A stretch of 55,557 nt of DNA from Phoronis australis (lineage: Eukaryota; Animalia; Phoronida). Shown here piece by piece: positions 695 through 55,557 of the stretch; within the stretch, counting starts at the first letter, position 1, and each line of letters begins with the position of its first letter. The DNA is taken from contig NMRA01000628.1 of NCBI GenBank assembly GCA_002633005.1, forward strand, positions 108,611 through 164,167, written 5' to 3'. The notes under the pieces were generated by a model. The model ran no database searches, had not been told where the DNA came from, and saw only the letters and a program-made list of their open reading frames with translations. The translations under genes and the position numbers were made by a program.

Positions 695-1177
695 CACAGG
701 TGTCCTCAGCTTCTGATCGTCCCCAATACACCACATACTACAAGGTATGACACTCCCCACTAGAAATTCAATGACGGTACGGAAATTGCCGGTGAGTTAC
801 GGAAGTACTCAATAGTTTTTCTACTGGCGGCCAAGTGTAGAGTTATCGACATCGTGACTTTACGCGACAAACCGGTCCGTACCGTCCTTGACCTCGAGCG
901 GCCCACGATGAAAGTGTGTGGTTTTTTTTGTGAACGTTTTTGTTCTTTGACTACGAATTTCTTACGAAGTCGCCAGAACAGGACACCGTGAATGGTATTG
1001 GGAGAAAGAACAATTCTTTATGGTTTGTTGAACCTCTGTTTTGTGTAAATTTGTGAGTTCTATATTTGCTATGGACGGCTGAAGTGAAGCACCTGTGGAA
1101 TTTCTAGTCGGGAGTGTCATACCTTGTAGTATTATATGTAGTGTATTGGGAACGATCAGAAGCTGAGGACGCCTGTG
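695..1177. mobile_element. MITE with ~80-bp TIRs, CA...TG ends and 8-bp TSD (P-element-like)
   Basis: CACAGGTGTCCTCAGCTTCTGATCG... / ...CGATCAGAAGCTGAGGACGCCTGTG; perfect TSD ACTGTGAA at 687-694 and 1178-1185. One-armed relatives at ~28795..29058 and ~52590..52871. Confidence 0.8.
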
Positions 1178-1501
1178 ACTGTGAATAGCTTTAGTATAGG
1201 AGTTATACCGTCTCTACACTCTACCGAGCCAGCTAGACTGAGATAGTGGCCACTGTCTACCAAGTACGCTTTTAGTTCATATTTTTCTTTATTGAATAGA
1301 TAGATTTTACTAGCTTTTTTTGTATCAGGATTTACTTCGTTTTCTGTATTTGTAAACACAAGAATCGTGGTCAGGGATGACCTGTCCTCGGCTCACTCCT
1401 TATACTCAATTTTAACTATAGTATGCTACCGTCACATTAATTTTAATCACTAAGAACACGCTCGTCCGCCATATTGGATGGCTCTTGTAATACCTTCTGT
1501 A

Positions 1502-3650
1502 TACTATAGGTGGCACTGAATAGTTAGGCTGCGGCCGCGGCCAATTTGCACTCCCAAAATATAGAAATTTTGGGGTAGGCCAAGTTTGGGGGCATTTTGT
1601 AGGTGGGCAATGCACGTAGGCTCAGTGAATGTGGTTTGTTTGTATTTGTGAACATGCTGTGAATAAAAAAGGCCACTTTCTTGGATGTAGCTGCACTCTT
1701 CTTCAAGATGGCGGCCCCCGGAGACAATTGTGCATTGTTGGGTAGCGACCGAGAAATTGGCTGTGATTTTAGGTAGCCCTCAAACAAGCAAGAATTGCCA
1801 AAAAACTAGTTGGTTGACAGTACTTTTGGACCACATTTTCTGAATCGCTAGGAAATTTGCTTTCAGACTCTAATTAGGGAGGACAATCAAAAAGTAGGTC
1901 ACGGTGCTCCATATCTGCCTCCGTGTAAAACCCACGTCGGTAAATTACCCGATTTCAGACTTCAAAGTTAACTATAAGACATTTTTGTGTTATAAATCCT
2001 TACCTTAGTCTTTATTTGTAAGTTTGTAATCTTTTTGTATCAAATTAGCGCTGATAAATCATTTTTTGTAAGCTTTTTTTAGCGCACGATTTTCCGCCAT
2101 GCGATCAACTTTCGAAAAAGTACCTCTTGTTCCTCCTATCCAAAAGAGCACTATATACTCTCAAATACAAACATGAAATTTGACAGGATGTAGTTTAGAT
2201 GCGTGCGCATCTCCTCAAGTTGTTTTCTTGAAGTCAAGGCCATGTTTTCATGGCGAGTTTTTGATCGTCCGGAAGGCCTAATTTTGGTCGGTCGGGAGAT
2301 TGATGTTTTTCCAGTTGCGCAATATGCCCCCCCGATTTTTAGATGAGGAATTTATCACTCTTTTAATTGGTAATTATATAAATTTCAGAAATTCTGTCAA
2401 ACTGATGCGCATTGGCACTTTTCAAACAGCAGTCGTTAGTTCACTAAGTCGCCGCATGTCAGCGCCACCATCGGCTACGTTGAAGTTCAATGGCATCGCA
2501 ACTTCAATGTTCGAAATAAAGTTGTTACAAAGTTTTTGTTGCGTAAATGATGAAATCCTTTATGTTAAGAGTGATTTGTTTTCCCAAATGGTCTTTTGTC
2601 TACTTTCTGATGTTTTTTGCCATGATACGATCTAATAGTATACATGGGTGGCACCCAGCACTGAAAAAAGTGGGGGAGCTAGGCTCCCCCAGCCCACTGT
2701 CAGGCAATGATGTGTTGCCCATGTAGTAGTATTCAGGGGCAGATCTAGGATTTTTAGATAGGAGGGGGGGCAGGGCAGAGTATTACGCAGGATTTTATCC
2801 GTAAGATATTTGCACCCTCAAACTGCCAAATGAGTGAAATATGGGAGTTTTAGGGGGGCCACGGGCCAGGCCCCTTTGCCCCCCCAAATCCACCAATGTG
2901 ATCTTGTGATTTGATGTGATATTTCCTCCTAGCTCAGATGTATTTATTTCTGAGCTGATGTGGTGTCTTTGCTCTTTACCTTTTAAGCTGTGTAATCCAT
3001 TGTTTTCATTTAACATGATGAGCCTGTTCTAACAACACACTTAAACAGCAATATCTCTGTAGAAATCGATCCAAATTTCATATAATACACACCACCATGT
3101 TTGTCTCAATTAGACGAATCTTTTTATATGCAGCATATGTAAATTCTTTTATTTTTTACGAAATTATGTAAAAAGGCAGATATTTTACGCATAATCGTCG
3201 CGTTTCAACAGCCATTTTCTCGTCAACCGCTCATCGAATTTTTCTGATTTTTGCACCATTTCATTTCTCACACCAAGGGCTTTTCAAAAATGTATGACAC
3301 ATGGATATTGTAAAAAAAATTAAAAAAACGTTGTCCTCCCTACTCTAATGTTGGTTTTAGTCGTGCATCGGCAGGGAAGTGGTGTTTTTCAGGTGAAAAG
3401 TGCCGATTTTGCATTTTTTCCCTTATTTTTCTTAGTCTAGCTTGGTTTTCAGTGGGAATGAAATGGTCAAAAATACAAGAAAGAATAAAGTTTCTGTGCT
3501 CATCTGCTGGGCTTTTTATGACGTGAAATAATTGAAAACATGCCATTCTTTGCATCCTGTTTTTGACAGAGTGAAGAAAAGGTTACAAATCAAGTGATGT
3601 GTGTTTTGCTAGGCAAAACCCAGTGAGAACTGTTCTGTGCCTCAATAGTA
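1502..3650. mobile_element. Unclassified ~2.1-kb non-autonomous DNA transposon directly upstream of SUGP1
   Basis: Imperfect TIR TACTATAGGTGGCACTGAATAGTT / AACTGTTCTGTGCCTCAATAGTA; both arms recur, joined, in the copy at ~53209..53852. Confidence 0.65.
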
Positions 3651-3896
3651 CATTACGGCAAATTCAAATAAATTAAAATAATTACCTCTCCTCTCGTGTA
3701 AAGAGGGTCTTTGACGTGTTCGGCCATGTTTTGTATCTGCATTTGTTACGAACCATGCTATTGGAAGTTGAATGTTTGGTACTTGACTAACCAATCAAAA
3801 CCGATTATCCAAGTAACATTGTAATCACGTCGCCACATCAATCTTGAGTATTTTGAGAGCTCTAAGGTTATCCAATTTGTCCTGTTTTTGGCTGAC
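3651..3896 (+). promoter_or_regulatory. Probable compact SUGP1 promoter/5'UTR
   Basis: Unique sequence between a transposon end (~3650) and the ATG; CCAAT box at 3791..3795 (taaCCAATca); no TATA seen. An upstream non-coding exon cannot be excluded. Confidence 0.35.
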
Positions 3897-4004
3897 ATGG
3901 CTTGGAGACAAGCCCGACTCGACCAAGAAAGCATGAATGATCGATTCAAGCAAATGAGCCAACAAGAGATGCTCATTGCTAAGAAAAAAGAAGAAATAGA
4001 AAAG
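3897..4004 (+). CDS. SUGP1: SUGP1 coding exon 1 ([36 protein letters not shown])
   Basis: ATG at 3897; donor AAG|GTTTGT at 4005; resembles the SUGP1 N-terminal QEELIAQKKREIE block. A second in-frame ATG exists downstream. Confidence 0.8.
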
Positions 4005-7000
4005 GTTTGTAATCTGTTATGCTGTCATCTGTGTCCGACTGGACAGTGACCTCAGTCTCTACAGGTACAGTCCAGAGAGACAATTCTCACTGGTTCCCAG
4101 AGTGTAGAGATCACACGCAGGTACCATTCAGTAGTATGCGCTTTATCACTGGTTGATGTAACCTCGGTCGTCATTTGTTAGCTTTACATCAAAGTGAGAA
4201 AATGGCGGACTATGACCGGTTTTTTGCCGTGTCATGCAAGTGGCAATGTTGTTCTTTAAAAAGCTGTGGGAGAAGTGTTTCACATTCTGCATTCAGACAG
4301 TTCATTCTTCAGTGTAATAGTATTCACTTTTACACTAAAACTTTGTGTAACTTTTATATTTCTCAACCAAAGTGAATAAAAGTAACACCGCTGGAAAGCT
4401 CGCGCTCTGCTTTGTGCCTTGTTCACGCAAGAAGAAATGGCACATAGTTTGCACCTGCGGAATAAAAATCGGGATACCTAATTGAAGAACCGACAAGCTG
4501 GACAAACATTCGGTGAGGAACCTGACATTTGTCTTGGGGATGAGTTTAGTTGGAAGTGGGAAATGGTATGTATTGTTAGTTCAATAACTCCCCAATAAGC
4601 CCTATAACACAATAGTCCACGCACAAGCCTCTTGCCTAGTTCTGTAAGATCTTGACATTGAAAGTAAGTGGCAGTATTAACAATTTACAGAAATTGATAA
4701 CCGAGAGACAAAAACAACAGGAGAGCGCTGTGAAGAAATATCAGGCGGGCAATATGCTAGCAGGTTCTGGAGGCAAGCCTGACTTGAAGAGAGGTTTAAT
4801 GTGAGTCATCTTTTTCAACTTCTCTCTGGGAGCAAAGTTCAGCTAATTGTTTATTTGGCTTTGCTTGTAAAGAGGTACATTACTCAAAACTGTTGTGAAA
4901 TTGAATCAGATGTCATTATATCTTAAAAAATAACATGACAAATACCTTCTCTGTGAAATTTCTTTGAATATAAACTATATAGATAATTTTCAAAGCCTTT
5001 GTTGTTTTTCCTTTGGTTTGCTTCCAAGCTTCGCATAGCGAATTTCAATAAAATTCATCAACTCCTACTGCCACAGGTGGCTTATTTTTATGCGCCCACA
5101 TAGTTGTATGTGGACTCATTGTGCTGTTATTCCTGTTTGTTGGTCTGTCCAGCATCATGAAATTTTGCAACTGTTCCTTTCATGAATGGGATGACAGTAG
5201 CGAACGTTCGGACAGATTCTAGTACTAACTGGTGTGCCCCCTAGTGGCAATTTTAGATTTTTTTATGTTTAACTCTATCTTCAAAGGTCCTCAACGGATT
5301 TTCATAAATTAGTGAATTGACGCTACCTTCCCATTTTGGGATGCATCCGAGGTATTTTGCACCACCTAGTGGCACCACCTAGTGGCCTTTTTTACTGTTT
5401 TCAAGTATTTTTTGGCATTCGCATCCGCACCTCTATCAACCAAACCACTCTAAGTATGCTTGTGAAAATTGGCGTTCATCTTCTTGCATTTAAGAGGACG
5501 GCTGACCATGATTTTTCGACGACTCTGACTGCTGTGGCACCTCCTAGTGGTAGTTTTTTTTCCACCTGTGGCTGTATTTCCTAAACACTCTGCAAGATCT
5601 TTACTAAATGTAGCAAGTGTATTGATATGAAGTTGACAATAGACAGCGATGACTTTCACATGGAGCTGACTGCTGATGTGGCAATTTTAGTTTTTAACAT
5701 TTACCGCAATATCTTCAAAGGTTCACAACGGTTTTCATAAAATTTGAAATATAGACACCTATTGGTGAGATGATGCTATCACTCCATTTTAGCAGATGGA
5801 TTCGAGGTATTTTGCATCACCTAGTGGCCATTTTTGCTGTTTCAAACCATTCTATAGATGAGTGAAAATTGGCATATACATGACATTGTATATATTGTTT
5901 GTGTAAACAGGATGGTTGATGATGATTTTTCGACGACTTTGACTGCTGCGACGCCTCTTAGTGACAGTTTTGTTTTTTATTTGTGCCTGTAGCTGTATCA
6001 CCTAAACACACTGCAGGATCTTTATTAAATTTACCAAGTTTATTTATATGAAGTTGACAACGGATGACGAATGCGGTGCCCCGTATTGTCAATTGCATTT
6101 TTTTCGGTTTTCCTTGCTCACATGTTCCTTAACAGAAATTGGTATATTGCTTTCTAGGCATGTCTCCATTTTCGGATGGATTCACCTTCTTTGCGCCATC
6201 TAGTGACCATTTTTATGACACGCCCCTAGAAGAACGCTGTTTGCGGTGAATTCGTGGGCCCATTTCAACGCTGTGCGTTGCTCTTGTTTCAACAGACGAG
6301 TCCAGAAAATAAAAAAACAAACTTGACGCCCAATTCTGGTTTTCAAATATTTTTGTGGAAGTAAATGTGAATTATTATATCAACTAACTGCATTTTTTCA
6401 TTCGCTATAATTTGTCAGGTTCGGAAAACGTCCAGGATTTAAAAAGGATTCATCAGCTCCAGAGGCCAAAAAATCCAAGGAAGACTCACAGGTGAAGAGT
6501 AGTCTTTTTGAAAATGACGGCAGTTTTATGGACAAGTTCAAACAAATGACCAGGATGAAAGGTAATGCTCAAGATTTTCCCTGTATTTCTTGCTGAGTTG
6601 GTGTTATGTTTGGAGAACGGAATGTGTTCCTCTTTGCAGTCAGGTGCCGTGCCAAGCCTGTTTACATTCTTCTTTACATAAACAGATTGGAGACTAAAAG
6701 TAGTGTCAATTGTATGCACGCTTTTAGACTAGTGAGTGAAAATAAAATTGAAAAGAACTTGACAAAACAGCATCAAGTTCTATGGAATGATAGTATCATG
6801 TTTAACAAACAAATAGCAGATTCTAGAACAAGTTCAAGGGTATGTAGGACCTTATTGACAAGCCTACATTCAGCCTCACATCTGGAAAGTAACTCGACGG
6901 AAGTATGTATCTTATCTGAAATTTCTTTAATTAAGGTGTTTGACTTCATACAAATCTGCCACAATTGGGTCGCTTCACCATGTCTTACGTGCCCGCATGT

Positions 7001-10000
7001 ATGTGCGTGCGTACAAGCGCGTTATGCCGTCATTTCCAACCGCCCATCATCCATTGCTGTATTTTCAAAATCCCAGGATGTATGTTATAAATTTTGCAGC
7101 TGCAATATCATGGACCAGGATGGGATCATCATGGTGTAAGCAAATTTTTGGACCGTTGCAATTACCGGTGTGCCTCTAGTGGCAATTTTATTTTTTACCT
7201 TTGCATTATTTTGCATCTTCATAGTTCTTCGACGGATTTTCATGAAATGTGGCAAACAGGTACTAATTATGGGTGTAACGCCATCCTCTTGTTTTTGGAT
7301 AGGTTTGATTCAGTCTGTGCCTAGTAGTGGCCATTTGTACTTAGTTTGAGTTTTGTCAGCCCACCTCTTTTTTGGCCAAATTACTGTGGGGATCAGTATG
7401 AAAATTAACACTTTTTTCCTACAGAGAAGAACAGAGCTGAAGATTATTTTTTGACAGCTGCGACTACTGTGGCTTCCCCTAGTTGTAGTTTTTTTGCATC
7501 TGGAACTAAATCTCTAATTCCTGAGGATTTTAGTTAACTTTGATAAGGGTAATTCTATGGACAGTGCAACCTATAGTGACAACTTTGGGATTGATCTGAC
7601 CACCGCAGTGCCCCCTATTGGCAATGCTATTTGTGCCCCGTTTTCCTTCCTTAATGTATTGTGAAATTGGGCAAAAACGCCTGAATTTTCATGGCATAAT
7701 GTGCGCCACCTACTGAACATTTCAATTTGTTTTTCAAGTCTGTTTTTTGGCATCTGCCAAACATTTCTTAAGGATTGTTATGAAAGTTGACGTAATTATA
7801 TGCTTTTTTCAAGAAATTGCAGAAATTGCATGGCTGATGATGATTTTGGACAGGTTCAACTGCGGCACAGTAGCATCCCCTAGTTTGTGGCAGTTATGTT
7901 TTTATGTGACTAAACATGTATTGTATAGAGTTGTATATCCTGGTCAAATCTTACTACTGCAGGGTGACCCCAGAGGCTATTTTGTCTTTCTTTGCATTTA
8001 TTCGAAGTTCATGGAATTTGGCTAATAAGTGTACAGCAACTTGCACGGCAACCCAAGCCCTGTTTCAGATAGATTTCACCTTTCGTTGCACCCCCAGGTA
8101 CCCTTTGTATTATTTTTTGTGTCTACTCTTCGCTTCCCGCCTCCGTATCCTCATTTAATATTGAACAAGAACCCTCAGAATCCCTTTTTATGAGCCCACA
8201 TATTTATATGTGGTCACATATTGCCGTCATCTCTGTCTGGGCGTCCGACGTCCGATGGCTGTATCTCCTAAACGCCTTGCAGGATCTTATTGAAATTTGG
8301 CAGGTGTTTTCCTATGGAGTTGACGACAGAGGGCGACGAGTTTCGGACCGACCCGACTACCGGTGTGCCCCCTAGTGGCAATTTAAATTTTTTTCGTTTA
8401 CCTCTGTATTTTCCAAGGCCCTTAACCGATTTTCGTGAAATTTGGCACATTGGCTTCTATTAATAATTTGACGCTACCCTCCGGTTTTCGGATGGGTCTG
8501 AGGCATTTTGCGCCATCTAGTGGCCATTTTTACTATTTTCGAGTCATTTTTTTTGGCGTCTGCCCCTCTAACAACCAAACCACTCAAAGGATGATTGTGA
8601 AAATTGGCATTATATATAATTATGTTCTTACTATGAAGAAGACAGTTGACGATGATTTTCTGACGACTTCGACTACTGTGGCACCTCCTAGTGGCAGTTT
8701 TGTTTGTTTTTGCGCCCGTGGCTGTATCTCCTAAATGCTCTACAGAATCTTTATTAAATTTAACAAATGTACTTATATGAAGTTGACAACCGACAACAGC
8801 GACTTTCGGACAGATCGGTCTACCGGTGTGCCTCTTAGTGGCAATTATAGTTTTTTATGTTTACCTCCGTATCTTCAAAGGTCCTCAAGGGATTTCCATA
8901 AAATTTAGCACATAGACATATTAGTGAGATGACGCTAGCCATTCATCTTCGAATTGATTCAAGGTATTTTGCGCCACCTAGTAGCCATTTTTGTTGTTTT
9001 CGAGTCTGTTTTTTGGCGTCCCTCCCTCTGTCAACCAAACCACTCTAAGGACGATTGTGTAAGTTCGCATGTATGTTCTTTCTATGAAGGGGACGGTTGA
9101 CGAGTAATTTGCGACAACTTTGACTACTAGTGGCACCTCCTAGTGGTGGTTTTGTTTTTTTTGCACCCATACTTGTATCTTCTAAGCCCTCTAAAGGATA
9201 TTTATTAAAGTTAGCTCGTGTATTTGTATGAAGTTAAAAAGAGAAGACAATAACTTTTAGACGGATCCCACAAACACTGTGCCCCTAGTGGCAATTTCTT
9301 TTTTTTTTTTCATTTTCCTCTGTTTCTCTGAAGTTCCTTGATGAATTTTAATGAACTTTGGTAAATGGCTTTCTTTTAACGAAACGATGACATTTTTTGG
9401 TTTTCAGACAGATTTGACGGATTTTGCGCCATCTAGTGGCCATTTTGATGATACAAATAAACAACTCTAAAAGCACACTATTTGCGATGCATTCGTGGGC
9501 GCACTTCAACGCTCCGCGTTGGTCTTGTTTAAATTATAATTCCTTGACCTGTTAAGCAACTTTCAAATATTTGTTGATGAATATAAAACATACTGCTTTT
9601 GCTAGCCCCTCTTTCAAAAAATGGGTCATTTTATAAACAATTAATTATTAACCGAATTTTAGAGAACCTTGCATCTAGCACTTTACACCTTCATGCTTCA
9701 TCAATTTTATTCTGATCAGTCATCTCTGAGATATGTTGTGAAGTTGGCCAAATTTGGATATTTGTCTGTGGTCCTACTGGTTATACATTTGACAGGTGAC
9801 TCCAGGTTCATGTTTCACCCACTGCTGCTGCTGGTGGTGTGATGCAGCAAAACTGAACGTGCGTTGATTGATTATGTTGTACAGAGTACGTGATAACTGT
9901 CAATCTCAATTTTAAGCTGTCACCTGTGACATTTCAAGCAAATTTAAAAGAAATGGTCACAGATTATCAACGAAAGTCACAAAATATTCCCATTTGCTGC

Positions 10001-13000
10001 TTCACTTTGCTGTCTTTGAGATGTCAGAAAAGCAAGCTGACTTTAGGTGATGGAATAATATATGCTGTGCTGGTCGCAGGTTAACTGGTATTTTGTTTTA
10101 CAGCTTCTAAGTCGTCCGGCGATGGCAACTCTAGAATATCAGAGTCACAACAGAGGGCGCATTCTAATCAACCATCATACGCAGGAACCTCAGCGCCATC
10201 AGTAAAGCCTGTCAAACTGATTCTTCCTCCTGCACAACAGGAGAAGAAGTTACCTAAAACTCGATTTCACTCTCGCTGGAACGATGATTACAGTGATGAA
10301 GAGGCATCTTCTGTACCAAACGAAGCATCCAGAAGGGAGCCCACTGGGTCCCAGTTATCCCGCACCAATCCTGGCGTGCCACCTCAAGTTACCACGGCCA
10401 ACTACCGGCCTCCCCCTCCAGCAGTTCCTCCAGATTTTGTCTCCAGGCCTCCACCCCCACTTATTCCAATGTCCCAGCCTCCAATGGTTCCGGTGTCGAT
10501 TGCCGCCGTACAACCTCCTGTGGTCTTGACTGGACAGCCGCCGAATGTTTTGCCGCCTAATAATGGCATGCCAAATCCAGGGCGTATTTTATCAAACCCT
10601 GCGCAGTTGGCATTGAATGCGACTCCCCTGACCCAGCCAGGTGCCACTTTACCACCGGGTATGCCATTGGCACACCCCACCGCCCCTCCCCTTCCCTTGT
10701 CTACAATCCCCTCAGTGACCAGTCACCTTGGTAACCTTAATTCCATGGCTTCACTACTACCGGTAGCCAACTCCTCCCTTGGACCAGCACCGTTCAACGT
10801 GCCTCTCCACCAGCCACCTCCACTCACAACAAACCCCCCTCCGTCTATGCTGGTTCCAACACAGGCTGCCTTGATGCCACCCTCCCAGCCAGTTGCATTC
10901 AATGTTCCTCCCCCGTCAGTTCTGCCTAGTGTTCCTGCTCTGCCAACAGTAGCAAGCCAACCACCGTATGGCGGTACTCGCTACCATCCAGTCTTGTTAC
11001 AACAGCCACCAGCACCACGAGCTCCGCTTCAACTAGATGTTACCACTACGGAAAAGAAAGACGTATATGACCCATTCAGTCCAACGACGGATGTACAATC
11101 AAAGTTAGTGTTGTAATTTACATTATTCCAACTTTCTGTAGTGTAATGTTATGTGTATTTTGAATTTCACTGTGATATATATTTATTGAAGGATACACAG
11201 AACATACAAAGAAATAATAACAAACCCAGAAATTTAACATTACACATTTTGTGGTAAACTGTTCTAACTACTAGACAAGAGTAGAGACCTATTTTTGATT
11301 TTCATTGGAGATATTTGTGGACACTGTCTGAGCATACCATCAGTATAACGGAAATATAGTGTGCCAAATTACCAGAGGGTGAAGGCAAGAATTGGACATC
11401 AATGTCATCTTCAGTCCTTGCCTCTTAACTAACATAGGTTCAACTGAAAACTTATAGAAGATTGCTTGAACCACATCTGCAGTATTTTATTATTTTGTTA
11501 TATGCAGTCTTTGTCATTTCTTTCTTAGTTTGCTTTTCTTACTGGTGCTATTACTTTCTTCTGTACTTTTCAGCATCAGTACAACAATAAAATCAAAAAG
11601 CAGGCTTCCTCTTCAGCGAAATGTGTTTGATGAAGCGGAGCTAAAAATAGGTAAGAACAAGTCGTGCTCTTAATAGTGTATTTTGTGTAGTTATTCGTAC
11701 ACTTTGTTTTGAAGTAAAGGGAAGCTGGGCTTATCGTTTTGTCTCTGCGTAACACCTTGTATTTGTCGAGGCATGAATCATAGATTAAATTTATGTAGGA
11801 CCTTAGAAAAACGTCGAAATTTGGATGACTATGGAGCATCAAATCTGTCAAATGGCTGGTGAGGTTCATTATGTATCTTCCGTATACTATGCTCAATGCA
11901 CTGTTCCACAGTGTGAACTGTTTTAAAAATGCTTCACTGTTGCAGGAGTGGCTATCAATAATTGTCTTTGATTATTCGCATGAGAAAAGTCAAAAGTTGC
12001 GTAAAATGATACTTTGCAAAACCGTAACAGCATTTCTTGATTTCATCTTGAACCCTTTTTTTCAAACAAAGTTTGATCACGTTATTGATACTGTTGTGTT
12101 GCTATAAGTGTATCTTTCTTTTTGCTAAATTTTAACATCAGGTTTTCTGCTTTCGGAAAATATATTTTCTCCAAGTTAAAATTCAGTATTTAGTTGTGGA
12201 GGTATGTTGCTAAATACACAGTCAGACGTGTTGATAAGGTCCTACATACGTTTTTAAACGGTAGCAAACTCGGTTTGGCCTATTTACAGGTACTTAAAAT
12301 GACTTTCCCAAAACATTGGTTTGTAACCCAATATAACCCTAAAAGGTTTGGAGCAAAATTTGAAAAGTTCATACAATTTCTGCTAAACGGGCAAGCGTGA
12401 CTTACGCTTTAGGTAGTTTATACGATAACTGAGGGGAGACAACCTATATGTGACACACTGAGCATGAGTTTTTAGTTGAATCCTGCTTTCATCATTCAAG
12501 TGGGATACCCCTGGTGCATTAGGACATGACAGAGTCAGGGAAACAAGATTTAGTACCCTTTTAACTTAATTTAATTAGGAATAACATTTACTGGATTATT
12601 TCCGTACACTTCATTTCTGCTGTTTCATATTAGTAGCTGGTAACTCTGAACTGCAGTTCATCACTTTGGAAAGTCGTGCACACATTCCAAGTCCTGTAGT
12701 TTTTTGTTAGTAAGTACCATTTGTCTCGCCTGTAAATACAACACAACCGTGCTCGAATCTGAATTCTAAAACGCCTGGCTTCCCATCTTATATCCGCGTC
12801 AGAGTACTTTGCTATGATTGGTTGGGACTAGTGTACTGAGAGGCCTGCTTCTAGTCTCTCCCCCAGCGGATGTCCGCATGAGACTCGCCATTGACGCCAT
12901 GGCAAGGAACGTCGTCGACAGAGGGCCGGAGTTTGAGCAGAGCACTATGGAGAAAGTGGGGATGGAGGACCCCAACTACAGGTGAGGAACTCGAGAACTG

Positions 13001-16000
13001 GAGTTTACTGGAAGACTGGCAAAGCAATGTCAAGTTAGCTTGATAATAACATGTCTATGTTGTCCATTGTTAAATATTGACCAAGACTCCAGTTGCTCAC
13101 TTAAAGCTTTTGCAGCATTGTTCTTAGATCCTTTCAAGAATATAAACATGATGATTTTGGTAATTAGGTTGATGCAAAATGGAAAAAAATTCTCTAATTG
13201 TCTGTGCTTCTGTTATTTTAGCTGTAAAGATTGAGCAAATTTCTCTCACCAGATGGCTCAATTTCAGGTTTTTGTTTGATGAAAGCTCTAAAGAACACAG
13301 ATACTACCAACAGAAAGTTCGAGAGCTGCAGAGAGAATCAAAATTCAAGCCAGCCTGGAAAGCAACCAAGGGCAGCTCTAGTGGAGGTGGTAATGAGGCC
13401 GATACAGAGGAGGCAGACGGCAGTGAATGGGACTGGGCTAAAGGTACACGGCAAAAGAAGAAAAAGCGGAAGAGTCGTTGGGGTCCACAAGACTCTGCTT
13501 CTCCTCAGATACCGCCACCAGATGTCGCCAGTCTTGGGGCCCCTGGTGTAGTGATCGCTCCGCAGTTGGGAGTAAGAGGTAAGATGGAAAATAAGGCAAG
13601 CTTGCTCCAGTTTTGTGTAAGCCCCATGTCTGTTTTGTCTTGACACCCTATGCAGTAATAGTTGCTTAAAAGGTCTCCAGATTTTGAGAACCAGCTTCCT
13701 CTACTGAATAACGAGCATCAAAGGGGTTCTCAAAATGCGACTCCTGTAAGTAACTAGTGCTATGTATGCGATAGTATAACTGTCCAATCATAATACAATA
13801 ACGGATTTGTGTTAATCGCGGTTCTGGTTTATGTATTTCATTTTCAATCTGTGTAATGATTTACCTTTCCACCAATGACTAGTTTGTTTATACACGTGCC
13901 TGTCATTTCATAGTTCCGTTATTGCAGACTCTGATGAAATTGATACACCACCAAATCCTAATTTACACACTACACGTTTGTGTAGAGCCCCTCCCCCATG
14001 TAGTCAATGATCTGGTTTAGCCGTCCCTTCTCTTTGCTACCATGTGCCAGTAAAGTTGTGAGGTTAAAAAGTGGTATGAGATTGTTGGCGTGTTGGATGC
14101 AAATACTGTAACAGTTGTTGTGAACGGCTGATATTGAATCAAGCCATTTTATTTCCTGGAACGATTACTAGCGAGAGAGGAAAAGATGGTTTATGACTGT
14201 ACATGTAGCAGTAATTCAGACTGATGTCAGGGTTTTGAAGCAATCTGTTCTCCATCTGGTACTTATAATACTAAGCTATGCACTTTGCATGAAGGCCAGC
14301 TTATTGAATGTAGTCAACAGCATAAGAATTTGACCATTCTTCCCAAGCCCACTTACCATATTCGCCCTAATAACCGCCCAAGGCACTTAAATATTTTGTT
14401 TCGGGGGGCCATTGTAACCCAATGCAGTTGAAATCCGGTCTCCGAAACAGGTGAAATCGGAAGATAAAATTCATCATGTTTACATTGAATTATTTCTGTA
14501 ATGTATCTGTAACCTATGAAAGACTTTCTACAAAATCGTGGTGCATTGCTATCAAACTTTGTGCTGTTAAATTACGATCATTTTACAGAAAATTGTGCTG
14601 AACTCCCAGGGCCAAAACTCGCCGACTGACTGCCTCACAATCGTCGATATGGCGACTTGAATGATTGAATAAAAATACAGTTTCGACTCAACAAACTACC
14701 TGAAATTCTCCTTAAGTTTTCCAAATAGCGTCCCTAAGATTTTTAAGTTCCCGTGGATGCAGGATTAACGGCAGGTTTAAGTTCAAATCTGTGCTACATC
14801 GTGCAGCGCTGATAACCCACATTTCTGAAGTAGTATAAAGCTAACTGCAGTACAATTGTTGAAGCGTATCAAAAATCATGATGTAACAGCGAAAAATCTC
14901 CCGTCAAAATTTTTTCAATTTTCTACAACATACTATGTGTTAATTAGCTTAACTCTTAGACCTGCTGTTTACCGTTCATTTGCCTAGTACCAACAATGCC
15001 TAGTGGCCAGACGCTGGCCAAACAAGTGACTGGCGGTAGTAGCCTGGATACGGAGCAGATGAAACAGCTTCAGCAACAGAAAGAGGTAACGTGGCCCGTA
15101 GTATTGTTTATGTTTACTCTCATCTTACCATCCTCACTCTTAGATGTATACCGGGTAGGAAAGTAAAGCTTATTCGTTTATTTTCGTGTGATGCCTAATA
15201 GCTTTGTGCGAGTAGGTATAGGCAACTGTATAAATCGATGAAAGGATGTAAATTAAATTTTCTTATTTCTTCAGTCAAACGCTCTTGTTTTTGTACCAAA
15301 AATGTTCTGCTAAAAACTAAATCCTGTTGGCAGACTTTCAGTTTTTAACAAAATTTTGTCTGAAGCAAAGATGAGACCATTTTCCCAGTTTCGTCAGGTT
15401 AAAATTAAAAATGCTTTGAGTTGTGCATATAAATACGGTCAGTCTCTGATGCAGAAGCAACTTAGATATTCACTTGTCAGTCATTGTGATTGATACACTG
15501 TCGAACGTTTCATTGTTTGTCCTTATGTCACTACTCACTGCACCATATTCCCACAATGCCACTCTAACTGTTAGTGTGCAGTTTTTTTAAAATTTCTTCA
15601 ATTTCAGACATACAAAATCGCTAAAATTTCTATGTTTGTATTTTTCAAAAGCTTACCACCTTGTTAGAATTGGTAAAAATTTCACCACGTTGTTTAATAA
15701 TGGCAACGTCATACAAACCATGCTTAAAGCAAAGTAAATTTTCCTGAAAAGTTAAATGTTGTTGAGAATTTTGACAAAATTGAATTTAAACTGCCCCCAA
15801 TTGAAGAATTTTCATTGTACCCACAATTCTACGCACAAATCATAGATCTAGACTCACTATTGTCCATTGCTGCCTGTGAAGTTTTTTGGTTGCATACCAA
15901 GGTGCATTGGAGACAATAAGAACTGAATGCAGTAATTGTCCTCAAAGGTTGCACTTTGCACCTCTAACTCTGTTCAATGTCTATTATTTTGGAAACTAGG

Positions 16001-37167: not shown

Positions 37168-37524
37168 TCAGTTAAGTTTGACCTTTTCGAGCTCCTTCAA
37201 GATGCTGCTTAGTTTTTGCTTCAGTACCTTCTTTTCTTCTTCCTCGCTTGCCTCTTTTGTTGGAGCCTCTTCTTTCTCTTGAACCTTCTCCTCCGTAACT
37301 GGAGCCGCCTCCTTTTCTTCAACACTACTCTTCGAAGCCGTGGATCCTTCTTCCGCCTCTTCTTTCTCTTTCTTCTCAGCGGGCTCCTTTTCTTCCGTTC
37401 CCTGCGCTTCTACTGAGCCTTCTTCCTCATTTTCTTTCTTGTCAGCCTCCTGTGTCTTCTCGTCAGTTTTCGCCAAATCTTGAAGTGAAGACTCCTCAAT
37501 GCTGTCTTCTTCCTGGCTTTGCTC
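37168..37524 (-). CDS. Secreted precursor last coding exon (Glu/Lys-rich, amphipathic C-terminal helix)
   Basis: atattccag| acceptor, in ORF 37168..37695, TGA at 37170..37168. Confidence 0.88.
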   Translation of the reverse strand, partial: EQSQEEDSIEESSLQDLAKTDEKTQEADKKENEEEGSVEAQGTEEKEPAEKKEKEEAEEGSTASKSSVEEKEAAPVTEEKVQEKEEAPTKEASEEEEKKVLKQKLSSILKELEKVKLN

Positions 37525-40500
37525 CTGGAATATATTGCAAGTCGATAAGTTTATGGTCACAACCAAAGGGAATATGCTCACACTACGTTTCAGCTGTCCG
37601 AAGTACGGTTGTCCGTCGAATTTTTCACAACTTGGAAAGCTGCTTTCGCCGTCACAACAAAAATGTATTTGCCAAACTTCATTCAAAACCGTCAAAGTAG
37701 CATGAAGGTACAGTGGAAAACCTAAAACCTAAAACTGTATTACGGATCTGAAATTGGTTGTCATCACCTTCATCGGAACACATTTAAGTCTCACTATGCT
37801 CTGCAAGGGGTAAAGGAGACACAGCCGCGGACGCCAGACGCCCAGACAGAGATGACGGCAATATGCACATAATACAAACGCAGGGTGTTAACAGTTTGTG
37901 TTAGCAAAATGATACATGTATCCACAGGCTGCTCCATACACAGGCACGTGTCGCTACAAGGTAAGGATGAATATTCTGGACATACCTTTTCTATAGGCTG
38001 TGGCTGTTCCTCCATATTTTCCGCTTCTGTAAAAGGCAGGCCAAGATAAAGTGTGTTGATTCTACCAGCGAGTTTACGCTTAGCATTTTACTATCTAAAA
38101 ACTGACAATATTTTCAAATGCAATCTTGGTTAACTGGGTTAAATAAATTGGGCGCGTAGTCTTGCCTTTTTGGGTCCAGAATCGAAAGCTATAAACCGCC
38201 AAAAACAGCAGACACCTATAGATGTAGCAAGAATATCCTTTAGAACTGAATACGCTACAGTGTATCTCACTCTGCATGCTCCATGTGCGTCCCCGGCTTG
38301 CAATCATAAATTTCCAAATTTACGTCAACTGAATGGTTCTATTTTTAAAGAAAATGATAAATTGCTATACCGAGTCGTCTCGGGACAACAACATCTGGGC
38401 TGCCTCTTGCCAAGCCCAAGAAAATTGTCACGCATAAACGATTCGTTGATTTGATACCAACAAGAGTTTGAGTACAAATTCTAAACTGGGACATTATACA
38501 GTAGGAATTCGTAGTTAAAATTCTCTTTCGTAGTTAAAATTCTCTCAACCGTGCAATTATTGTTTCGCATAGAGTTCACGTTTCGTGCATTGTGCATGTT
38601 GACAGTCTACGAAATAGGATTATGTCTAAACGTTCCGTGCAGAGGAGAAACGGGGGTTGGTGAATAGTCCGAATAGTCGCAAGTACGAACTCAAATGTTG
38701 CACATTCTATTCCAATGCTGACTCTATAGTCCAAATAATCTATAGTCTGAAGTGATAATAGCTGGAAGGGTCTGTAGTCGGAATGGTCTACAAGCAAAAC
38801 CGCATTTACTTCGGATTAACAAAACCTTCAGGTCATAGAAATTTTGGTATGGATAACTTTACAGCCCAATGAGCTCGTGTATTGGATCCATAGTACGAGA
38901 GATCCAAGCGTCAAGAGTTGTTCAAAAATACCTTTCGGACTAACAACTCCCCAGATTAACAAACCAGGCTGTAAATTTTGACCAAGCAAATTTGTGTAGG
39001 TTTGAGAAAATATTCTTCCTACACCTAAGACCACGGATGCTTGTCTGTCTAATCTTAACCAAAGCTCCAGTCGGTTTTTGACAATTTTCCAGTAATGAGG
39101 CCTACAAATTCCTTAGCCACTCGAACGGTCGCTTCTTTGTCCAAACTACCCTCTGATTTGCCATGCAAATTATCTGACGAAACCAACGATTCGTCCTACT
39201 TCCACATTATGAGTTATCGTTCCTCCCAATCCCTGTACGTTTCCAACAGTTAACCTGGCGCCTTCACTAGTGTCTCTACTTCACCGTTCTATACTTACCC
39301 TCAATGGACTCCTTCTTGCTGAACTCTTTTTCTTCAGGTTGATCTTCACCCGTCATCTCTTTGTATATCATGTCAGCCAAAAAGTTGCTCTCTTCCTCTT
39401 CCCGCTCCTGCATGTCTGTGCCATCTTCAGGAGTGTCGCTAATTAAATCCTCATCGTAGACCCTTTCCTCCTCATCAACGTTCTCATCGTTCATAGATTG
39501 GTCCTCGAAGCTTCTATCATCTGCATTTAAATACCCGTCGTCCATGTTCTCGTCTTCTTCTTCTTCACTCATCTCCTTCTCGTTCTCATCCAAGGGTTCC
39601 TCATCCTCTTCGTCAAAATCGTTTTCGTCATATTCGCCTCGTTCTTGAAGGACTTCTCCTTCTTCGTCGCTCCAGTCTTTGTCAACATCTTGTTCACGCT
39701 GGTTCAGTAACTGAAAACGCCACAAGACAGTTACCTGTTATTACAAATCCGTCGTTGACGCTATTAATGACCAGAACGTGATGCATTTTAAGACTTTATT
39801 GGGAGACAGGTGCTTGTTGAGGTAATGATCTGGAAATTCAGCAAGCTAACGTCTCTAGTCGTTGTCAACATTTTGTGTGTTGTTATCTATACATGTACGT
39901 CTAAACTTGGGCATGTGGGTCCTACTGCCAATCCTTGCCGACTCCGTACCTTTCAGTTTCGACGAAACTGCACCCCCCACACCTCGTGTTCCTGGCATAA
40001 TCGCGTGTAACTACATAAACCTCTTTAATTCAATTGCAAAGTAAGCATCGATCACGCTTTTTTAATAAAAGTATTTGCACGAGTTAGTAAAGGATAAGAC
40101 CTTTTTCCTGATAGTACACATTGCTGGAATTTTGGGATGCAGCCTATATTTCGAAAGGATAGTACAGTATGTAATTAATCTTTGGCTTGAATTATGAACA
40201 CAGGCAGATCAAATTCTGTTGAATCAAAGGTCTAAATTGGTTAGCAGTGAAAAGGGTGATGGGCCATGCTACAGTTTTTACCCCTTCATTGTCTGTCTAA
40301 TTTGCTATGAAATTGACCGTTTATGGTCAGATATTTGTGGAATATCTCCAATTGATACTGGAACATAGACAGAATGAAACCAACCAATGCCGACGTCCAG
40401 AAAACTTAAAACCATCACTTTCAGCCGAGGAACATCTATATCCCACAATTCTCTATCCGTAAAAAGTCCAAACCACATGTCTTTGTTTTGGCAGCGTTTC

Positions 40501-43500
40501 GTGTATTTTTGTCTGCAACTGATGGAACAACTGTGGAAACGCCCAAGTAAACATGAAACAAGAATGAATAGTTAGGTTTCTGGTATAATAGCTGCTGATA
40601 TAACTTTGTGACATCCTCACCTGATCCTCGGATTTCTCGATGGCTGTTTCTTTTGCCGCTTCTGCAAGCAACAGTGAACATGATGGAGAAGTATATTATT
40701 GCAATCTGATGAACAGAATTTGGAAAAAGTAAATCTCGCTTATTGTCCCGGACGCCCATCTGTCAGGCATTCAATTACACGTGACGGTGTCATGTGAAGC
40801 GACAGTGGTCCTCCCTCTACACTAGTAAGGTCCTTTGTATCTCAATGGATAGTGGACAAGGAATAACTATTTCAAACAGTGTTATATATCGATAAATTAG
40901 TTGCAGGCGGTACACGTTGTACCAGACGTGCGCAGGCCGCTTAGTTGGGCCCATTGCGCTGATCACATGAAACTATTTTAAGCTTTATTGGTATGTATTT
41001 AAAACCGAGCTGAGGAGCTAGAGGCCCGATTCAAGGGTCTAGTAGTGTGCCCCAGGGGGACTCGAATCCCCGACTTCAGTAAATGAACAGGACACTTATT
41101 CCAGTAGACCACTCTTCCTGCGCTTGAAAAACAGTGTTACAACTCGAACAATCATTTTTGACACACTTCTATGTACTACGAATGAAACTCGCTTCAAATT
41201 TGAAAAAAAAAATGTAACACTGAGCAGTGGCTTTCTTTATGCTCTTTGGTTGTGCTCGACTGGATCCCCACTTTAAGGAATCGACGATTCGGATTGTCAT
41301 TTCTACAATCATTTTCTACATTAATTGTATTTTTTTTATTAATTTTCTACATTATTTTTATTTCTACATTCATTTTCTACATTAATTGTAATTTTTTTAT
41401 TAATTTTCTACATTATTTTTATTTCTACAATCATTTTCTACATTACTTGTAATTTTTTTATTAATTTTCTACATAATTTTTATTTCTACATTCATTTTCT
41501 ACATTAATTGTAATTTTTTATTAATTTTCTACATTATTTTTATTTCTACAATCATTTTCTACATTACTTGTATTTTTTTTATTAATTTTCTACATAATTT
41601 TTATTTCTACAATCATTTTCTACATTTCTTGTAATTTTTTATTAATTTTCTACATTATTTTTATTTCTACAATCATTTCCAACATTAATTGTATTTTTTT
41701 ATTAATTTTCTACTTTATTTTTATTTCTACATTCATTTTCTACATTACTTGTATTTGTATATTTATATTCTTTTTCTACAACATTCACATTCTGTACAAT
41801 CATTTATTACATCATTTTTCATTGCATTTCTGAATTCATTTTCTTCATTATTTGTAGTTGTACATTCATTTTCTACAGTACTTGCATTTGTACATTCCTT
41901 TTCTACATTATTTGTATTTCTAAGGTTATTTTCTCTTTTTGTATCTCCGTTCATTTTCTTCAATAGTTTCATTTCTAAGCTTATTCTCTGCATTTTCATT
42001 GTTTACATTTTTGTATCTCTCCACTAGTTTTCTATCTTATTTGTATTTCTACGTTCATTTTTCCCATTATTTTCTCCTTCTTATATTTTTACTTTCACTT
42101 CCTACATTATTGATATTTCGACATCCATTTTCTACGTTATTTGTATTAGTTCCAGCCTATTGCATTCCCTTTGGTCCTTCCGGGGCCATTGTAAAAAGGA
42201 CATATACATGCTTTCTTAACTCTCAAAACGAAAGAATTCCCAACAGTAGCTGTCTGATCAGTAAAACAGTCCTGAGTGTTTTCACAGATTAGTGACTGTT
42301 GGAGTAGCGCAATGTCTTTAGTGCAGGTGTTTAATTATGGGTGTAACTGTTAACATGAAACTTTAGTCAGGGTTATAGTCGTGCAATCGTTTTGTAATGA
42401 ATAATTAACCATATGTTCCAGCGGACGCTTTTAAAAAATCATACTTTCATAGATCGAACTGTTGAATCGATATGAATATGGCGCCCACCGTATATGCCAC
42501 CATTTTGTCTTCTTATTTGCAGTCATGAAGCTCGGGGACAATCCAAGAATGTCCGTGGGATTACAGCGATTCCCAGTCCACGCGAATCTATCCCATTTTT
42601 GTTTGAATGACAAAAATACTTGCATTTTATAAAATTGAACTGCTGCCTTTTGAAAGTAAAAATTTTGATGGTTCCTCTTCAATCGCTTGTTGTCTATGGA
42701 GACATGAAAGGGAGACCGTCACGATTCAAAATTTATTTGTTCACCATCGCGATGACTGCACCTTTTTGATCTTTGAACCCCCGAAGCAATATTTGTTCTC
42801 AAATGTGCATCAATTTATGCCGACTACAAAAAAGAATATTTATAAAAAAGAATATTTATGCAGTCTAGTCACGCCAAAATCTTGGCCGTGCCAACAGAAT
42901 ATGTCGTGACTTCCCTAAGGCAGTGTTCAGGTACTTATGAATATGGCAATTTGACGACTTGAAAAGACATAGTGTCTACGTTAATCAGAAACAAGTGACA
43001 TAAATCAAAGCTTTCAGGTCGCCGGTCTATATAGTTAATGCAAACACTGCACTTACACACGCGCCGACAAATGCAACCCAGTCAAGTGCACGTAGATGTA
43101 CTTCGAAATGTTTTCAATTTTGGTTAAAGATAACCTTTCCGCTTCAGCCCAAATACATGTATTGCCTATTCAATACATTTTAAATATTTTCAAGCTCAAA
43201 TGAATTTGATATTATTTTTTGTTTAATTTTTACTTCTAGTGCTGCACCACCACATAAAATGGCCGCCGTAGTGAGTGACAGCTGACCCATGTATTGGGAG
43301 TTCTTTCTCAACTGCCGCCATAATGTAATGAGGTTTCCACGGAAATCCCGCCTACTTAAAAGAACATTAAATCCCTAAAACTTTATCTAAAGATAATTGT
43401 TGCACGGTGCTTAAAAATGTGTTAACTCAGCTTAATGATCATAAAACGTTTATTTGAAGCTACTTATCTTTTATGAAAAAAATAAAACACCAGACTGTAT

Positions 43501-53852: not shown

Positions 53853-54877
53853 ATTAGTTGAGTCTTAAGCCAATCGAGTTCAGAGCGCGTCCAGACGAAG
53901 CTTTGCCTCATTAAGGATTATCCGCAGTCTAACTGAGCCTCAAGCGCTTTCAACGTTAAGCTACTTTCGACCAGTGCTGTATTAAAGTTGAAGCACTGAA
54001 GCATTCAATTATACCAAAAGTCGAACATTTCCTGAACAGTGAGTTGTGCAACAGCCTTGTGGTCCGGCGTTTTAGCTTCGATGAATTTCTTCATTTTTTC
54101 GTGGCGTCGTCTATTTTCGTGTCTTAGCTATTGGAATGCAAAAATAATATGGAGATTTCCTCCGTGTTAATCACAGCATTGGAAAATAAATTTGGAAACT
54201 GCTGATTTGTTGAATGGAGACTTGAACGCTGCGAGCAGACGATCGTCTCAGGGAAAAAACACATACCCAATAACAGATCGCAATTTCCTGTAAAGAATTT
54301 AGCCCTCAGTGTACATATATACTGTTTGCATCCATAAAAAACGTTTTCGTTGGATTTGAATTCGATTTTTGGCTGATTTTGTGGGCCGGGGACGCTATTT
54401 AGCTTAACCTATTTATGATGATCCCGATTGACACTTCAGCGTGGCCCAACGCGCCTGATCACCGTGCGTCGTAATTTTCATCGGTAAACCTTTTCTGTTT
54501 TTAGAGCAGTAAAACCCGGCTTTTTCAGGAACGATGTCTTGGACTAAGGATTTAAGGAAGCCAAATGCCCGAGCTCAATCAAGTTTAGCGTTGCACTCGC
54601 GCGAATTTACACCCCCGGGAGACCATTCGATCACTAACCGTGAAATACGGCTTTTATTGCTGTATACGGCTTCTAGCGTTGTATACGGATTGACTCTACT
54701 TTCCCGTAATTGACAGTTAATAACGTGACGTATACAACATCCATATTTTCACATACAAGGGATAAGTCATTTAATATTCATTTATTATACCACAATATTA
54801 GCGTCAAATGGCAGATACAACCGTGTAATAACCCATAAAGTTATCTCACTAGTGAGATAACGATTTGGCGGGAAACC

Positions 54878-54947
54878 GAGGACGGGGTCGAACCCGGGAA
54901 CCTAATATTGCTGGTCGCCGACTTTACCACTACACCACACAGCGACT
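54878..54947 (-). repeat. tRNA-derived (SINE-head-like) sequence; similar remnants at 41045..41120 (-) and 29921..29985 (+)
   Basis: A box TGGTGTAGTGG and B box GGTTCGACCCC at tRNA spacing, but no acceptor stem. Confidence 0.5.
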
Positions 54948-55176
54948 GACGTCATTAAGAGTGAAAATAGAATACTTAAATGAGCACGCGCAATAATCGC
55001 ACGTTCAACAAACCACATTGTACTGTACTTATACGCTACGAAAAATAAGACACATAATTTCCATAAAAATGATATCTTAATTCGGTGAAATTTTTCTCTC
55101 ATGTCCTCTTACTTGTAAATCACCGATCTCTACTTTGAATGCGGGTATCGTGTCGTCAGGATCTTTGACTTGTGGT

Positions 55177-55414
55177 GTGGTGTCTTCGACACAGGGTTAG
55201 ATGTGTAGTTAGTGTAGCTTAGTATAGTTAGTGCTTGCACTTTCTAGCTTTCAGCTTCTACGACCACCTAGTCCTCTGAGACGAATTAGGAAGGCATGTG
55301 TAAGACCCGCCTTGGTGGCCTTTAACTACCTCTAATCAAGACTCTTGCAGTACCTCCTCGTGGTACACCATGGTAACTGGGCACCCTGCGGCCCCAGGCT
55401 AAATTTTGCAAGGG
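55177..55414 (+). ncRNA. HDV-like self-cleaving ribozyme with large J1/2 insertion
   Basis: P1 GUGGUGU (55177-83)/ACACCAU (55365-71) with G.U first pair; P2 CUCUUGCAGU (55342-51)/AUUUUGCAAGGG (55403-14); P3 ACC/GGU closing L3 UCCUCGU (55355-61); P1.1 CC/GG (55372-73); P4 CUGGG/CCCAG; J4/2 GCUAA with candidate catalytic C55399. Confidence 0.78.
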
Positions 55415-55557
55415 ATCTCGGAAGAGGTTAGGCTCTTAAAGGTGCAACGTGCATGACCCATCGGTGTATGGATATGCTCTGGCGTTCACCAACCTAACTC
55501 CCAGCTATGGGCAAATAGCACCCTTCATTGGTTGGGCTCAAGACTTACTACCTTGTC
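55177..55557 (+). mobile_element. Probable 5' end of a non-LTR retrotransposon (RTE-like), running off the window
   Basis: Begins with the HDV-like ribozyme and is more GC-rich than its flank. No RT/endonuclease coding sequence is visible in the window, so the clade is inferred only. Confidence 0.45.

What the first reader, a model, noticed from the sequence alone, without database searches (positions are those of the whole stretch)
55177..55414. HDV-like self-cleaving ribozyme with a ~160-nt J1/2 domain
Seen: all elements of the nested double pseudoknot occur in the right order: 7-bp P1 with a G.U first pair (GUGGUGU/ACACCAU), P3 ACC/GGU with L3 UCCUCGU, P1.1 CC/GG, P4 CUGGG/CCCAG, J4/2 GCUAA (C55399) and P2 with a 2-nt bulge. 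J1/2 (55184-55341) can close with CUU.GA/UCAAG. GUGGUGU also occurs 5 nt upstream (55172), giving an alternative P1 register and cleavage site. Known: HDV-like ribozymes process the 5' ends of R2, RTE and other non-LTR retrotransposons, some with large J1/2 insertions. Inference: a new instance marking a 5'-complete retroelement start, with predicted cleavage 5' of G55177.
Basis: partly seen in the sequence, partly recalled or inferred. Interest (0 to 1): 0.75.

Follow-up and report, generated by a model that had tools for sequence, protein, structure and literature searches.

The report
Self-cutting RNA heading an RTE retrotransposon

Summary
The HDV-like core is real. All helices lie in order, only 4 of 1000 shuffled windows gave a descriptor hit, and three metagenome relatives keep the fold with 3 compensated pairs. 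In those relatives the core sits 0.4-0.7 kb upstream of APE+RT coding sequence with short-repeat tails, i.e. RTE-like. (1) The 5' end is G55172, not G55177: all 5 of 10 contigs that reach the start join unrelated flanks at 55169-55173, and folding prefers P1 at 55172 because a hairpin hides the inner copy. (2) The proposed CUU.GA/UCAAG closure is not favoured; J1/2 (163 nt) folds as a hairpin plus a long stem, and P2 extends by 3 pairs. A 2-nt insertion at the foot of P2 may slow this subfamily. The copy is inserted into a high-copy repeat. Cleavage is untested and this element's ORF lies beyond the window. It is a new member of a known kind; this scan already holds 155 notes with these keywords in at least 35 genomes. 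The duplicated P1 echoes a published R2 model.

The parts
54785..55172 (.). Host high-copy interspersed repeat into which the element is inserted; its usual continuation beyond 55163/55172 is different from the window
   Evidence: Summed contig depth of about 1,000-8,800 against about 27 on the element in run X1; loose ends with 0.89-0.97 agreement behind 55163 and 55172, sharp left edge at 54785
55172..55178 (+). P1 5' strand, preferred register; predicted cleavage 5' of G55172 = element 5' end (G55172 may also be 1-nt microhomology with the target)
   Evidence: 5 contigs join unrelated flanks at 55169, 55170, 55171, 55172, 55173; pair probabilities 0.6-1.0 with P2/P3 blocked
55177..55183 (+).
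   Evidence: Pair probability 0.00 when the RNA starts at 55140 or 55172, 0.6-0.76 only when it starts at 55177
55180..55192 (+). 5-bp hairpin at the start of J1/2 that sequesters 4 of the 7 bases of the inner P1 copy
   Evidence: Pair probabilities 0.98-1.0, about 5 kcal/mol gain; most sister copies have A at loop position 55187, which leaves the stem unchanged
55195..55337 (+). Long J1/2 (P1.2-type) branched domain closed by a 7-bp and a 7-bp stem
   Evidence: Closing pairs 0.90-1.0; parts conserved in L055/L057 (5' and middle) and L056 (3' end); overall stability not above shuffles
55339..55351 (+). P2 5' strand including a 3-bp extension (55339-41 with 55416-18, across bulged A55415)
   Evidence: Extension pairs in 4 of 4 aligned sequences, one as G-U; probabilities 0.70-0.75
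55352..55364 (+). P3 and L3 (C55356, C55357 form P1.1; U55355 and G55360 are the conserved L3 pair)
   Evidence: A-U in the window, G-C in 3 of 3 relatives at the first P3 pair; L3 identical in 4 of 4
55365..55373 (+). P1 3' strand (55365-71) and GG of P1.1 (55372-73)
   Evidence: Sequence; the P1 3' strand is the most variable part among relatives
55377..55397 (+). P4
   Evidence: 5 invariant outer pairs (fixed by the search pattern on the 5' side), inner pairs partly kept
55398..55402 (+). J4/2 with the predicted catalytic C55399
   Evidence: Identical in 4 of 4, not part of the pattern used
55403..55418 (+). P2 3' strand with a 2-nt insertion in the U run 55404-07
   Evidence: Absent in L055-L057 and in one paralog contig (X3 record 10), present in X1 record 5, X3 record 8 and X5 record 16
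55419..55557 (+). Rest of the element's 5' UTR up to the window end; no RT or endonuclease coding sequence in the window
   Evidence: Similar to L055-L057 up to about 55522; tblastn of their proteins against the window gave nothing

Best explanation
The stretch from G55172 is the 5' end of a low-copy non-LTR retrotransposon, likely of the RTE clade, inserted into a high-copy repeat, and its first ~247 bases hold every element of an HDV-like nested double pseudoknot that is predicted to cut the RNA just 5' of G55172. Mechanism (inferred from known HDV-like ribozymes): a host read-through transcript runs into the element; J1/2 folds first into a small hairpin and a long branched stem that hold P1 next to an extended P2; C55399 and Mg2+ catalyse cleavage; the released RNA begins at G55172 and is the template for target-primed reverse transcription, so new full-length copies begin there. 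P1's 5' strand is present twice, 5 nt apart; the inner copy (55177) is predicted to be hidden in the hairpin, which would explain why the duplication is passed on. Shown: motif order, shared start of sister copies, APE+RT downstream in relatives. Inferred: cleavage, its site, RTE membership of this copy, autonomy.
For: Motif and shuffle control. Relatives L055-L057 keep the core: 97.1% of 104 cells paired, 3 pairs with changes on both sides, 7 of 500 shuffles as high for % paired and for covariation score. Their ORFs carry Exo_endo_phos and RVT_1, start 378-683 nt after P3 and end in short-repeat tails, matching the RTE description in PMC2887409; nearest Atlas cluster is named 'craniofacial development protein 2', a label I recall as typical of RTE proteins. 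Of 10 contigs laid, the 5 that extend 5' of 55188 begin at 55169-55173; flanks are printed for 4 of the 5 and differ from each other and from the window; none begins at 55174-55183. Folding picks the 55172 register independently. In RTE, R4, L1 and Drosophila R2 elements cleavage coincides with the element's 5' end (PMC3774820 Discussion). A structured J1/2 plus extended P2 speeds cleavage in drz-Agam-2-1 (PMC4908430).
Against: No cleavage assay. The two pairs at the foot of P2 are predicted weak in this subfamily (probability 0.01 for U55351-A55403; 2.4-3.4 kcal/mol worse than leaving them open or partly open; pseudoknot energy not modelled), so the ribozyme may be slow. Only 4 sequences support covariation; 30 of 500 shuffles match the count of doubly changed pairs, and P3, P1.1 and part of P4 were constrained by my search pattern. 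P1 covariation is barely tested: L056 has no P1 partner within 450 nt, L055 only one 346 nt upstream, and L057's partner lies in a TG repeat with 9 candidate registers. This copy's ORF, 3' tail and target-site duplication are outside the window. The two relative types are only 26% identical in protein, so the subclade is open. No contig or read bridging this copy's own 5' junction was seen in 4 runs. All 6 RNA reads over G55360 in run X14 carry G-to-A, a change that abolished cleavage in a Nasonia R2 ribozyme, so some expressed copies are probably dead.
Confidence: 0.75

Rival explanations
1. The 5' end at 55172 is set by an internal promoter in the same sequence (as Pr77 of L1Tc), and the ribozyme of this subfamily is slow or vestigial because of the 2-nt insertion at the foot of P2.
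For: P2 foot predicted open; the insertion is shared by the multiplied copies; a J1/2 motif at 55189-55223 is kept in a related family with another 5' part, as a promoter or protein-binding element might be; the dual promoter/ribozyme precedent is in PMC3383444 (search listing) and PMC8256844 (passage).
Against: L3, P1.1, J4/2 and a perfect 7-bp P1 with a G-U first pair are intact, and the element starts exactly at a P1 first G. PMC6765202 states that RTE elements with these ribozymes carry no promoter of their own (passage).
Confidence: 0.13
2. Cleavage is 5' of G55177, and the upstream GUGGU is re-created at each insertion by slippage or comes from a preferred target sequence.
For: Identical 7-bp P1 is possible; in L057 the P1 strand is followed directly by a UUAGAC-like motif, as the 55177 register is here, suggesting it was the ancestral register.
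Against: All 5 informative contigs and the window contain 55173-76; a chance match of 4 bases has probability about 0.005 per copy; the host repeat's usual continuation is not GUGGU; register probability 0.00 when the upstream bases are present.
Confidence: 0.07
3. The ribozyme works as described, but the element is a non-autonomous derivative (the two ends of an RTE joined, or a SINE-like unit) and not a coding retrotransposon. This is compatible with the ribozyme part of the best explanation.
For: No ORF in the 139 nt after the ribozyme; earlier notes of this scan describe many ribozyme-headed bipartite RTE derivatives (untested by me).
Against: Relatives' ORFs start 380-690 nt after P3, beyond the 205 nt available here; the collapsed contig X1 record 5 runs on for about 1,350 nt past the window end, longer than the 0.4-0.6 kb units in those notes; copy number is low.
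Confidence: 0.2
4. Chance resemblance to an HDV fold.
For: No Rfam match; whole-region folding energy equals shuffles.
Against: position exactly at a shared element start and upstream of RT genes in 3 of 3 relatives.
Confidence: 0.02

Closest known systems
HDV-like ribozymes at the 5' ends of RTE-clade elements (Ruminski et al. 2011, not held; seen only as cited in PMC3774820 and PMC6765202)
   Same: Nested double pseudoknot at the first base of an APE+RT non-LTR element; conserved downstream and variable upstream sequence among copies.
   Different: New family; P1 5' strand duplicated in tandem; 2-nt insertion at the foot of P2; activity untested.
drz-Agam-2-1 type large HDV-like ribozymes (Webb et al. 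2016, PMC4908430; parts 1-2 of 4 read)
   Same: Structured J1/2 (P1.2) with short linkers and an extended P2 (12 bp there; 3+8+2 possible pairs here).
   Different: J1/2 here is a 163-nt branched domain preceded by a small hairpin; no Rfam match to any listed family.
R2 ribozymes with duplicated P1 (Eickbush et al. 2013, PMC3774820; sections 12 and 18 and passages read)
   Same: Two possible P1 strands after a 5' duplication; cleavage at the outer one passes the duplication on and lengthens J1/2 (their Figure 8 model); long J1/2 loops are common.
   Different: There the duplicated bases are 28S rRNA and the inner P1 is lost by substitution; here the duplication is 5 nt of the element itself, both copies are perfect, and the inner one is predicted to be hidden by a hairpin. 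The element is not rDNA-specific.
L1TcRz / Pr77 of trypanosomatid L1Tc (PMC3383444, PMC3185411: search listing only; passages in PMC8256844)
   Same: HDV-like ribozyme at the first bases of an APE-type LINE.
   Different: 77 nt with short J1/2, L1/ingi-type element, proven promoter; promoter activity not tested here.

Membership tests
HDV-like ribozyme | P1, P2, P3, P1.1, P4 in nested double-pseudoknot order | tested here: met
HDV-like ribozyme | Catalytic C in J4/2 | tested here: met
   C55399 in GCUAA, identical in 4 of 4; role of this C from PMC10879173 passages
HDV-like ribozyme | 5' purine opening a 6-7 bp P1; conserved U and G in L3 | tested here: met
   G55172 (or G55177) with U55371; U55355 and G55360; 5' purine need in PMC11331408, L3 G in PMC3774820
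HDV-like ribozyme | P2 continuous up to P3 | tested here: inconclusive
   Perfect in L055-L057 apart from one mismatch in L055; interrupted by 2 nt in the window's subfamily and predicted open at the foot
HDV-like ribozyme | Covariation of helices among relatives | tested here: inconclusive
   3 doubly changed pairs (2 in P2, 1 in P3) in 4 sequences; P1 not alignable, P4 and P1.1 invariant
HDV-like ribozyme | Mg2+-dependent self-cleavage lost on C-to-U change | not testable with these tools
   Needs a bench assay
RTE-clade non-LTR retrotransposon | Single ORF with AP endonuclease and reverse transcriptase | tested here: inconclusive
   Met in relatives L056 (1015 aa) and L057 (1099 aa), frameshifted in L055; this copy's ORF is beyond the window
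RTE-clade non-LTR retrotransposon | Very short 3' UTR ending in short tandem repeats | tested here: inconclusive
   Met in L056 and L057; not visible for this copy
RTE-clade non-LTR retrotransposon | Target-site duplication of 6-12 bp | not testable with these tools
   3' end outside the window and no genome held; ambiguous in L057, none found in L056
RTE-clade non-LTR retrotransposon | RT phylogeny groups with named RTE elements | not tested
   No named RTE reference came from any call; solved-structure hits are L1 and R2 only, E 3e-34 and weaker
Ribozyme-headed retroelement | Full-length copies share one 5' end at the P1 first base, with different flanks | tested here: met
   5 of 10 contigs reach the start and join at 55169-55173; window departs from the host repeat at 55173

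The most novel reading that the evidence does not exclude
A snapshot, outside R2, of how these ribozymes lengthen their J1/2: the ancestral P1 strand (55177) was duplicated by 5 nt at the element's own 5' end, a hairpin now locks away the inner copy although it is still perfect, and cleavage has moved to 55172, so the extension is inherited. The inner register would come back into use only in copies that lose about 5 bases at insertion, giving a two-position ribozyme.
Probability: 0.3. Interest if true: 0.45.

Novelty: new member of a known kind. Interest (0 to 1): 0.27.

Why it matters
Modestly. HDV-like ribozymes at RTE 5' ends are described, and this scan has met them many times. The value here is a clean, cheap test: two identical P1 strands 5 nt apart, with genomic 5' junctions and folding both pointing to the outer one, would test the published R2 model of cleavage-site shift and J1/2 growth in another clade. 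The subfamily also multiplied with a 2-nt insertion next to the active site, which asks how slow such a ribozyme can be.

Tried and rejected
No genome is held for this window, so no genome-wide copy analysis. Rfam gave nothing relevant. The first viral scan returned 54 loci; those I read are short-J1/2 HDV-like motifs with no BLAST match to the window, not this family; a second viral scan found 0. The one prokaryote-genome hit L058 has no ribozyme core and is chance. No RNA holder was listed. RNA reads on the element are few (16 in X13, 15 in X14); no pile-up of starts was reported. From bin depths I infer that two X14 reads begin at 55172-55176 without unmatched letters, which fits a 5' end near 55172, but two reads of unspecified strandedness prove nothing. 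My own idea that the inner P1 rescues copies missing only the first G was not supported: with a start at 55173 the outer register still wins and the inner stays at 0.001. Paralog differences could not be scored for compensation because 7 rows of the table were not shown; X1 record 7 has depth 4.2 and may hold errors. The host taxon was not determined: a search with a SURP-domain exon found nothing; the window is an intron-rich eukaryote. Four paper searches showed no description of this family or of a tandem P1 in an RTE, but Ruminski 2011 is not held and Repbase/Dfam could not be searched. No supplements were read.

Full report
Observation. A descriptor for the HDV fold found this one locus on both strands of the 55.6-kb window, and 4 of 1000 dinucleotide shuffles gave any hit; I wrote the descriptor from recalled features after seeing the sequence, so the figure is optimistic. 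Rfam has no matching family. Whole-region folding energies equal those of shuffles, which is unsurprising for a pseudoknot but gives no support to special stability of J1/2.

Relatives. One metagenome scan with a core pattern returned 3 loci, L055-L057. They resemble the window over about 190-200 nt at 73-77% identity, including sequence outside the pattern. On the 4-sequence core alignment 97.1% of 104 cells pair; 3 pairs change on both sides (two in P2, one in P3); 7 of 500 shuffles reach the % paired and the covariation score, 30 of 500 the number of doubly changed pairs; slid controls fall to 18-55%. P2 extends by three further pairs (55339-41 with 55416-18) in 4 of 4. A model built from the three relatives alone scores the window 86 bits against 11 for the next hit, partly circular because of how they were found. 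Downstream, L056 and L057 have single ORFs of 1015 and 1099 aa and L055 a frameshifted one, with AP-endonuclease and RT domains, starting 378-683 nt after P3 and followed closely by short-repeat tails. This matches the RTE description in PMC2887409 (passages). The nearest Atlas cluster is named after craniofacial development protein 2; that such names mark RTE proteins is my recollection, with only a reference title in PMC4613681 in support. No tree with named RTE references was made. L056 and L057 proteins are 26% identical, so the ribozyme is far better conserved than the protein.

Where the element starts. Reads and contigs show that 54785-55172 is a very high-copy repeat whose usual continuation differs from the window after 55172, while the ribozyme region has low depth. 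The element is therefore inserted into that repeat, with the junction at 55172/55173. In one search, 10 contigs were laid (7 from X1, 3 from X3). Five extend 5' of 55188 and begin at 55169, 55170, 55171, 55172 and 55173; flanks are printed for four and are unrelated to each other and to the window. None begins at 55174-55183. Of the other five, one is a collapsed 1726-nt contig that starts at 55188 with 1 difference, three belong to a related family that joins at 55189 with another 5' part, and one is a diverged low-depth copy from 55211. The flank contigs have depths of 3-9 against 22.5 for the collapsed body, so a few near-identical copies exist. The copy in X3 record 8 differs from the window at 6 of 385 bases. 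No contig or read crossed this copy's own junction, which may mean the insertion is polymorphic, but a hole proves nothing.

Which P1. Both registers give the same 7-bp helix. With P2 and P3 blocked so that P1 can be scored, the 55172 register has probabilities 0.6-1.0 and the 55177 register 0.00 whenever the upstream bases are present, because 55180-84 pairs with 55188-92 in a hairpin worth about 5 kcal/mol. Folding and junction mapping thus agree on G55172, and J1/2 is 163 nt (55179-55341). In this fold P1, the hairpin, the long stem and the extended P2 are joined by linkers of 1, 2 and 1 nt, the arrangement that speeds drz-Agam-2-1 (PMC4908430, parts 1-2 of 4); the 55177 register would leave an 11-nt linker.

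Weak point. The window's subfamily has two extra U at the foot of P2. They are absent in L055-L057 and in one paralog contig, present in three other contigs, so they are inherited and not a sequencing error. The foot pairs are predicted mostly open (no pseudoknot term). All 6 reads over G55360 in X14 carry A, a change that stopped a Nasonia R2 ribozyme (PMC3774820 section 12); X13 and the DNA contigs keep G. RNA reads are too few to map an end.

Mechanism. Shown: fold elements, shared start, insertion into a repeat, APE+RT in relatives. Inferred from known cases: read-through transcription, cleavage 5' of G55172 by C55399, use of the released RNA for target-primed reverse transcription, and possibly translation initiation (PMC6765202, passages; PMC3774820 Discussion). 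Rivals are an internal promoter with a slow ribozyme, cleavage at 55177 with the extra bases re-made at each insertion, and a non-autonomous element; each is weighed in its own entry.

Novelty. HDV-like ribozymes heading RTE elements are published, they are known from sea urchin, lancelet, lamprey, nematodes and insects (PMC8256844, passage), and P1-to-partner distances of 23 to over 700 nt are known in R2. Earlier notes of this scan hold 155 findings with these keywords in at least 35 genomes; none matched this sequence, its neighbourhood or the words for a duplicated P1. A duplicated P1 that shifts the cleavage site and lengthens J1/2 is the Figure 8 model of PMC3774820 for R2; my four paper searches showed no RTE case, but the key RTE paper is not held. 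In L057 the P1 strand is followed at once by the motif that here follows the inner register, which hints that 55177 was ancestral; this rests on one distant relative. Verdict: real, a new member of a known kind, with a corrected cleavage site and a small testable twist. Interest 0.27.

Noticed in passing
window 54785-55172: Very high-copy repeat, abundant in RNA on both strands, with a sharp left edge at 54785, a 22-nt palindrome at 54840-54861 and a tRNA-like stretch on the minus strand at about 54870-54945 that ARAGORN and Rfam do not call. Likely a tRNA-related SINE or a MITE carrying one.
   Followed up: partly
L057:4328-4368 and 3' tail; L055 3' tail: Both elements end against TG microsatellites, and L057's P1 3' strand pairs with TG-repeat sequence in several registers, so the target microsatellite could supply the P1 5' strand, as 28S rRNA does for many R2 elements.
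   Followed up: partly
L026:2617-3580 (giant-virus MAG contig, minus strand): Five short HDV-like motifs within 1 kb, each apparently following a tRNA-like sequence in a tRNA array; resembles the theta ribozymes described for gut phages (PMC10879173). tRNAs judged by eye, not called by a tool.
   Followed up: partly
window 55189-55223: A second, related family in the same species label shares this 35-nt J1/2 motif but has another 5' part; one copy has the canonical P2 and a different P1 3' strand.
   Followed up: partly
flanks of X1 records 1 and 4 at window 55169-55172: Two of four printed flanks carry a 6-base inverted copy of 55179-55184 within 3 bases of the junction; could be short snap-back synthesis at insertion or chance.
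   Followed up: no
window 41271-42147: Tandem array of 30/61-nt units on the minus strand of a region with long acidic reading frames (37168-37728, 39276-39737); possibly a coding repeat of 10 codons.
   Followed up: no
window 10085-13643: Plus-strand exons of a proline-rich protein with a weak SURP module hit.
   Followed up: partly
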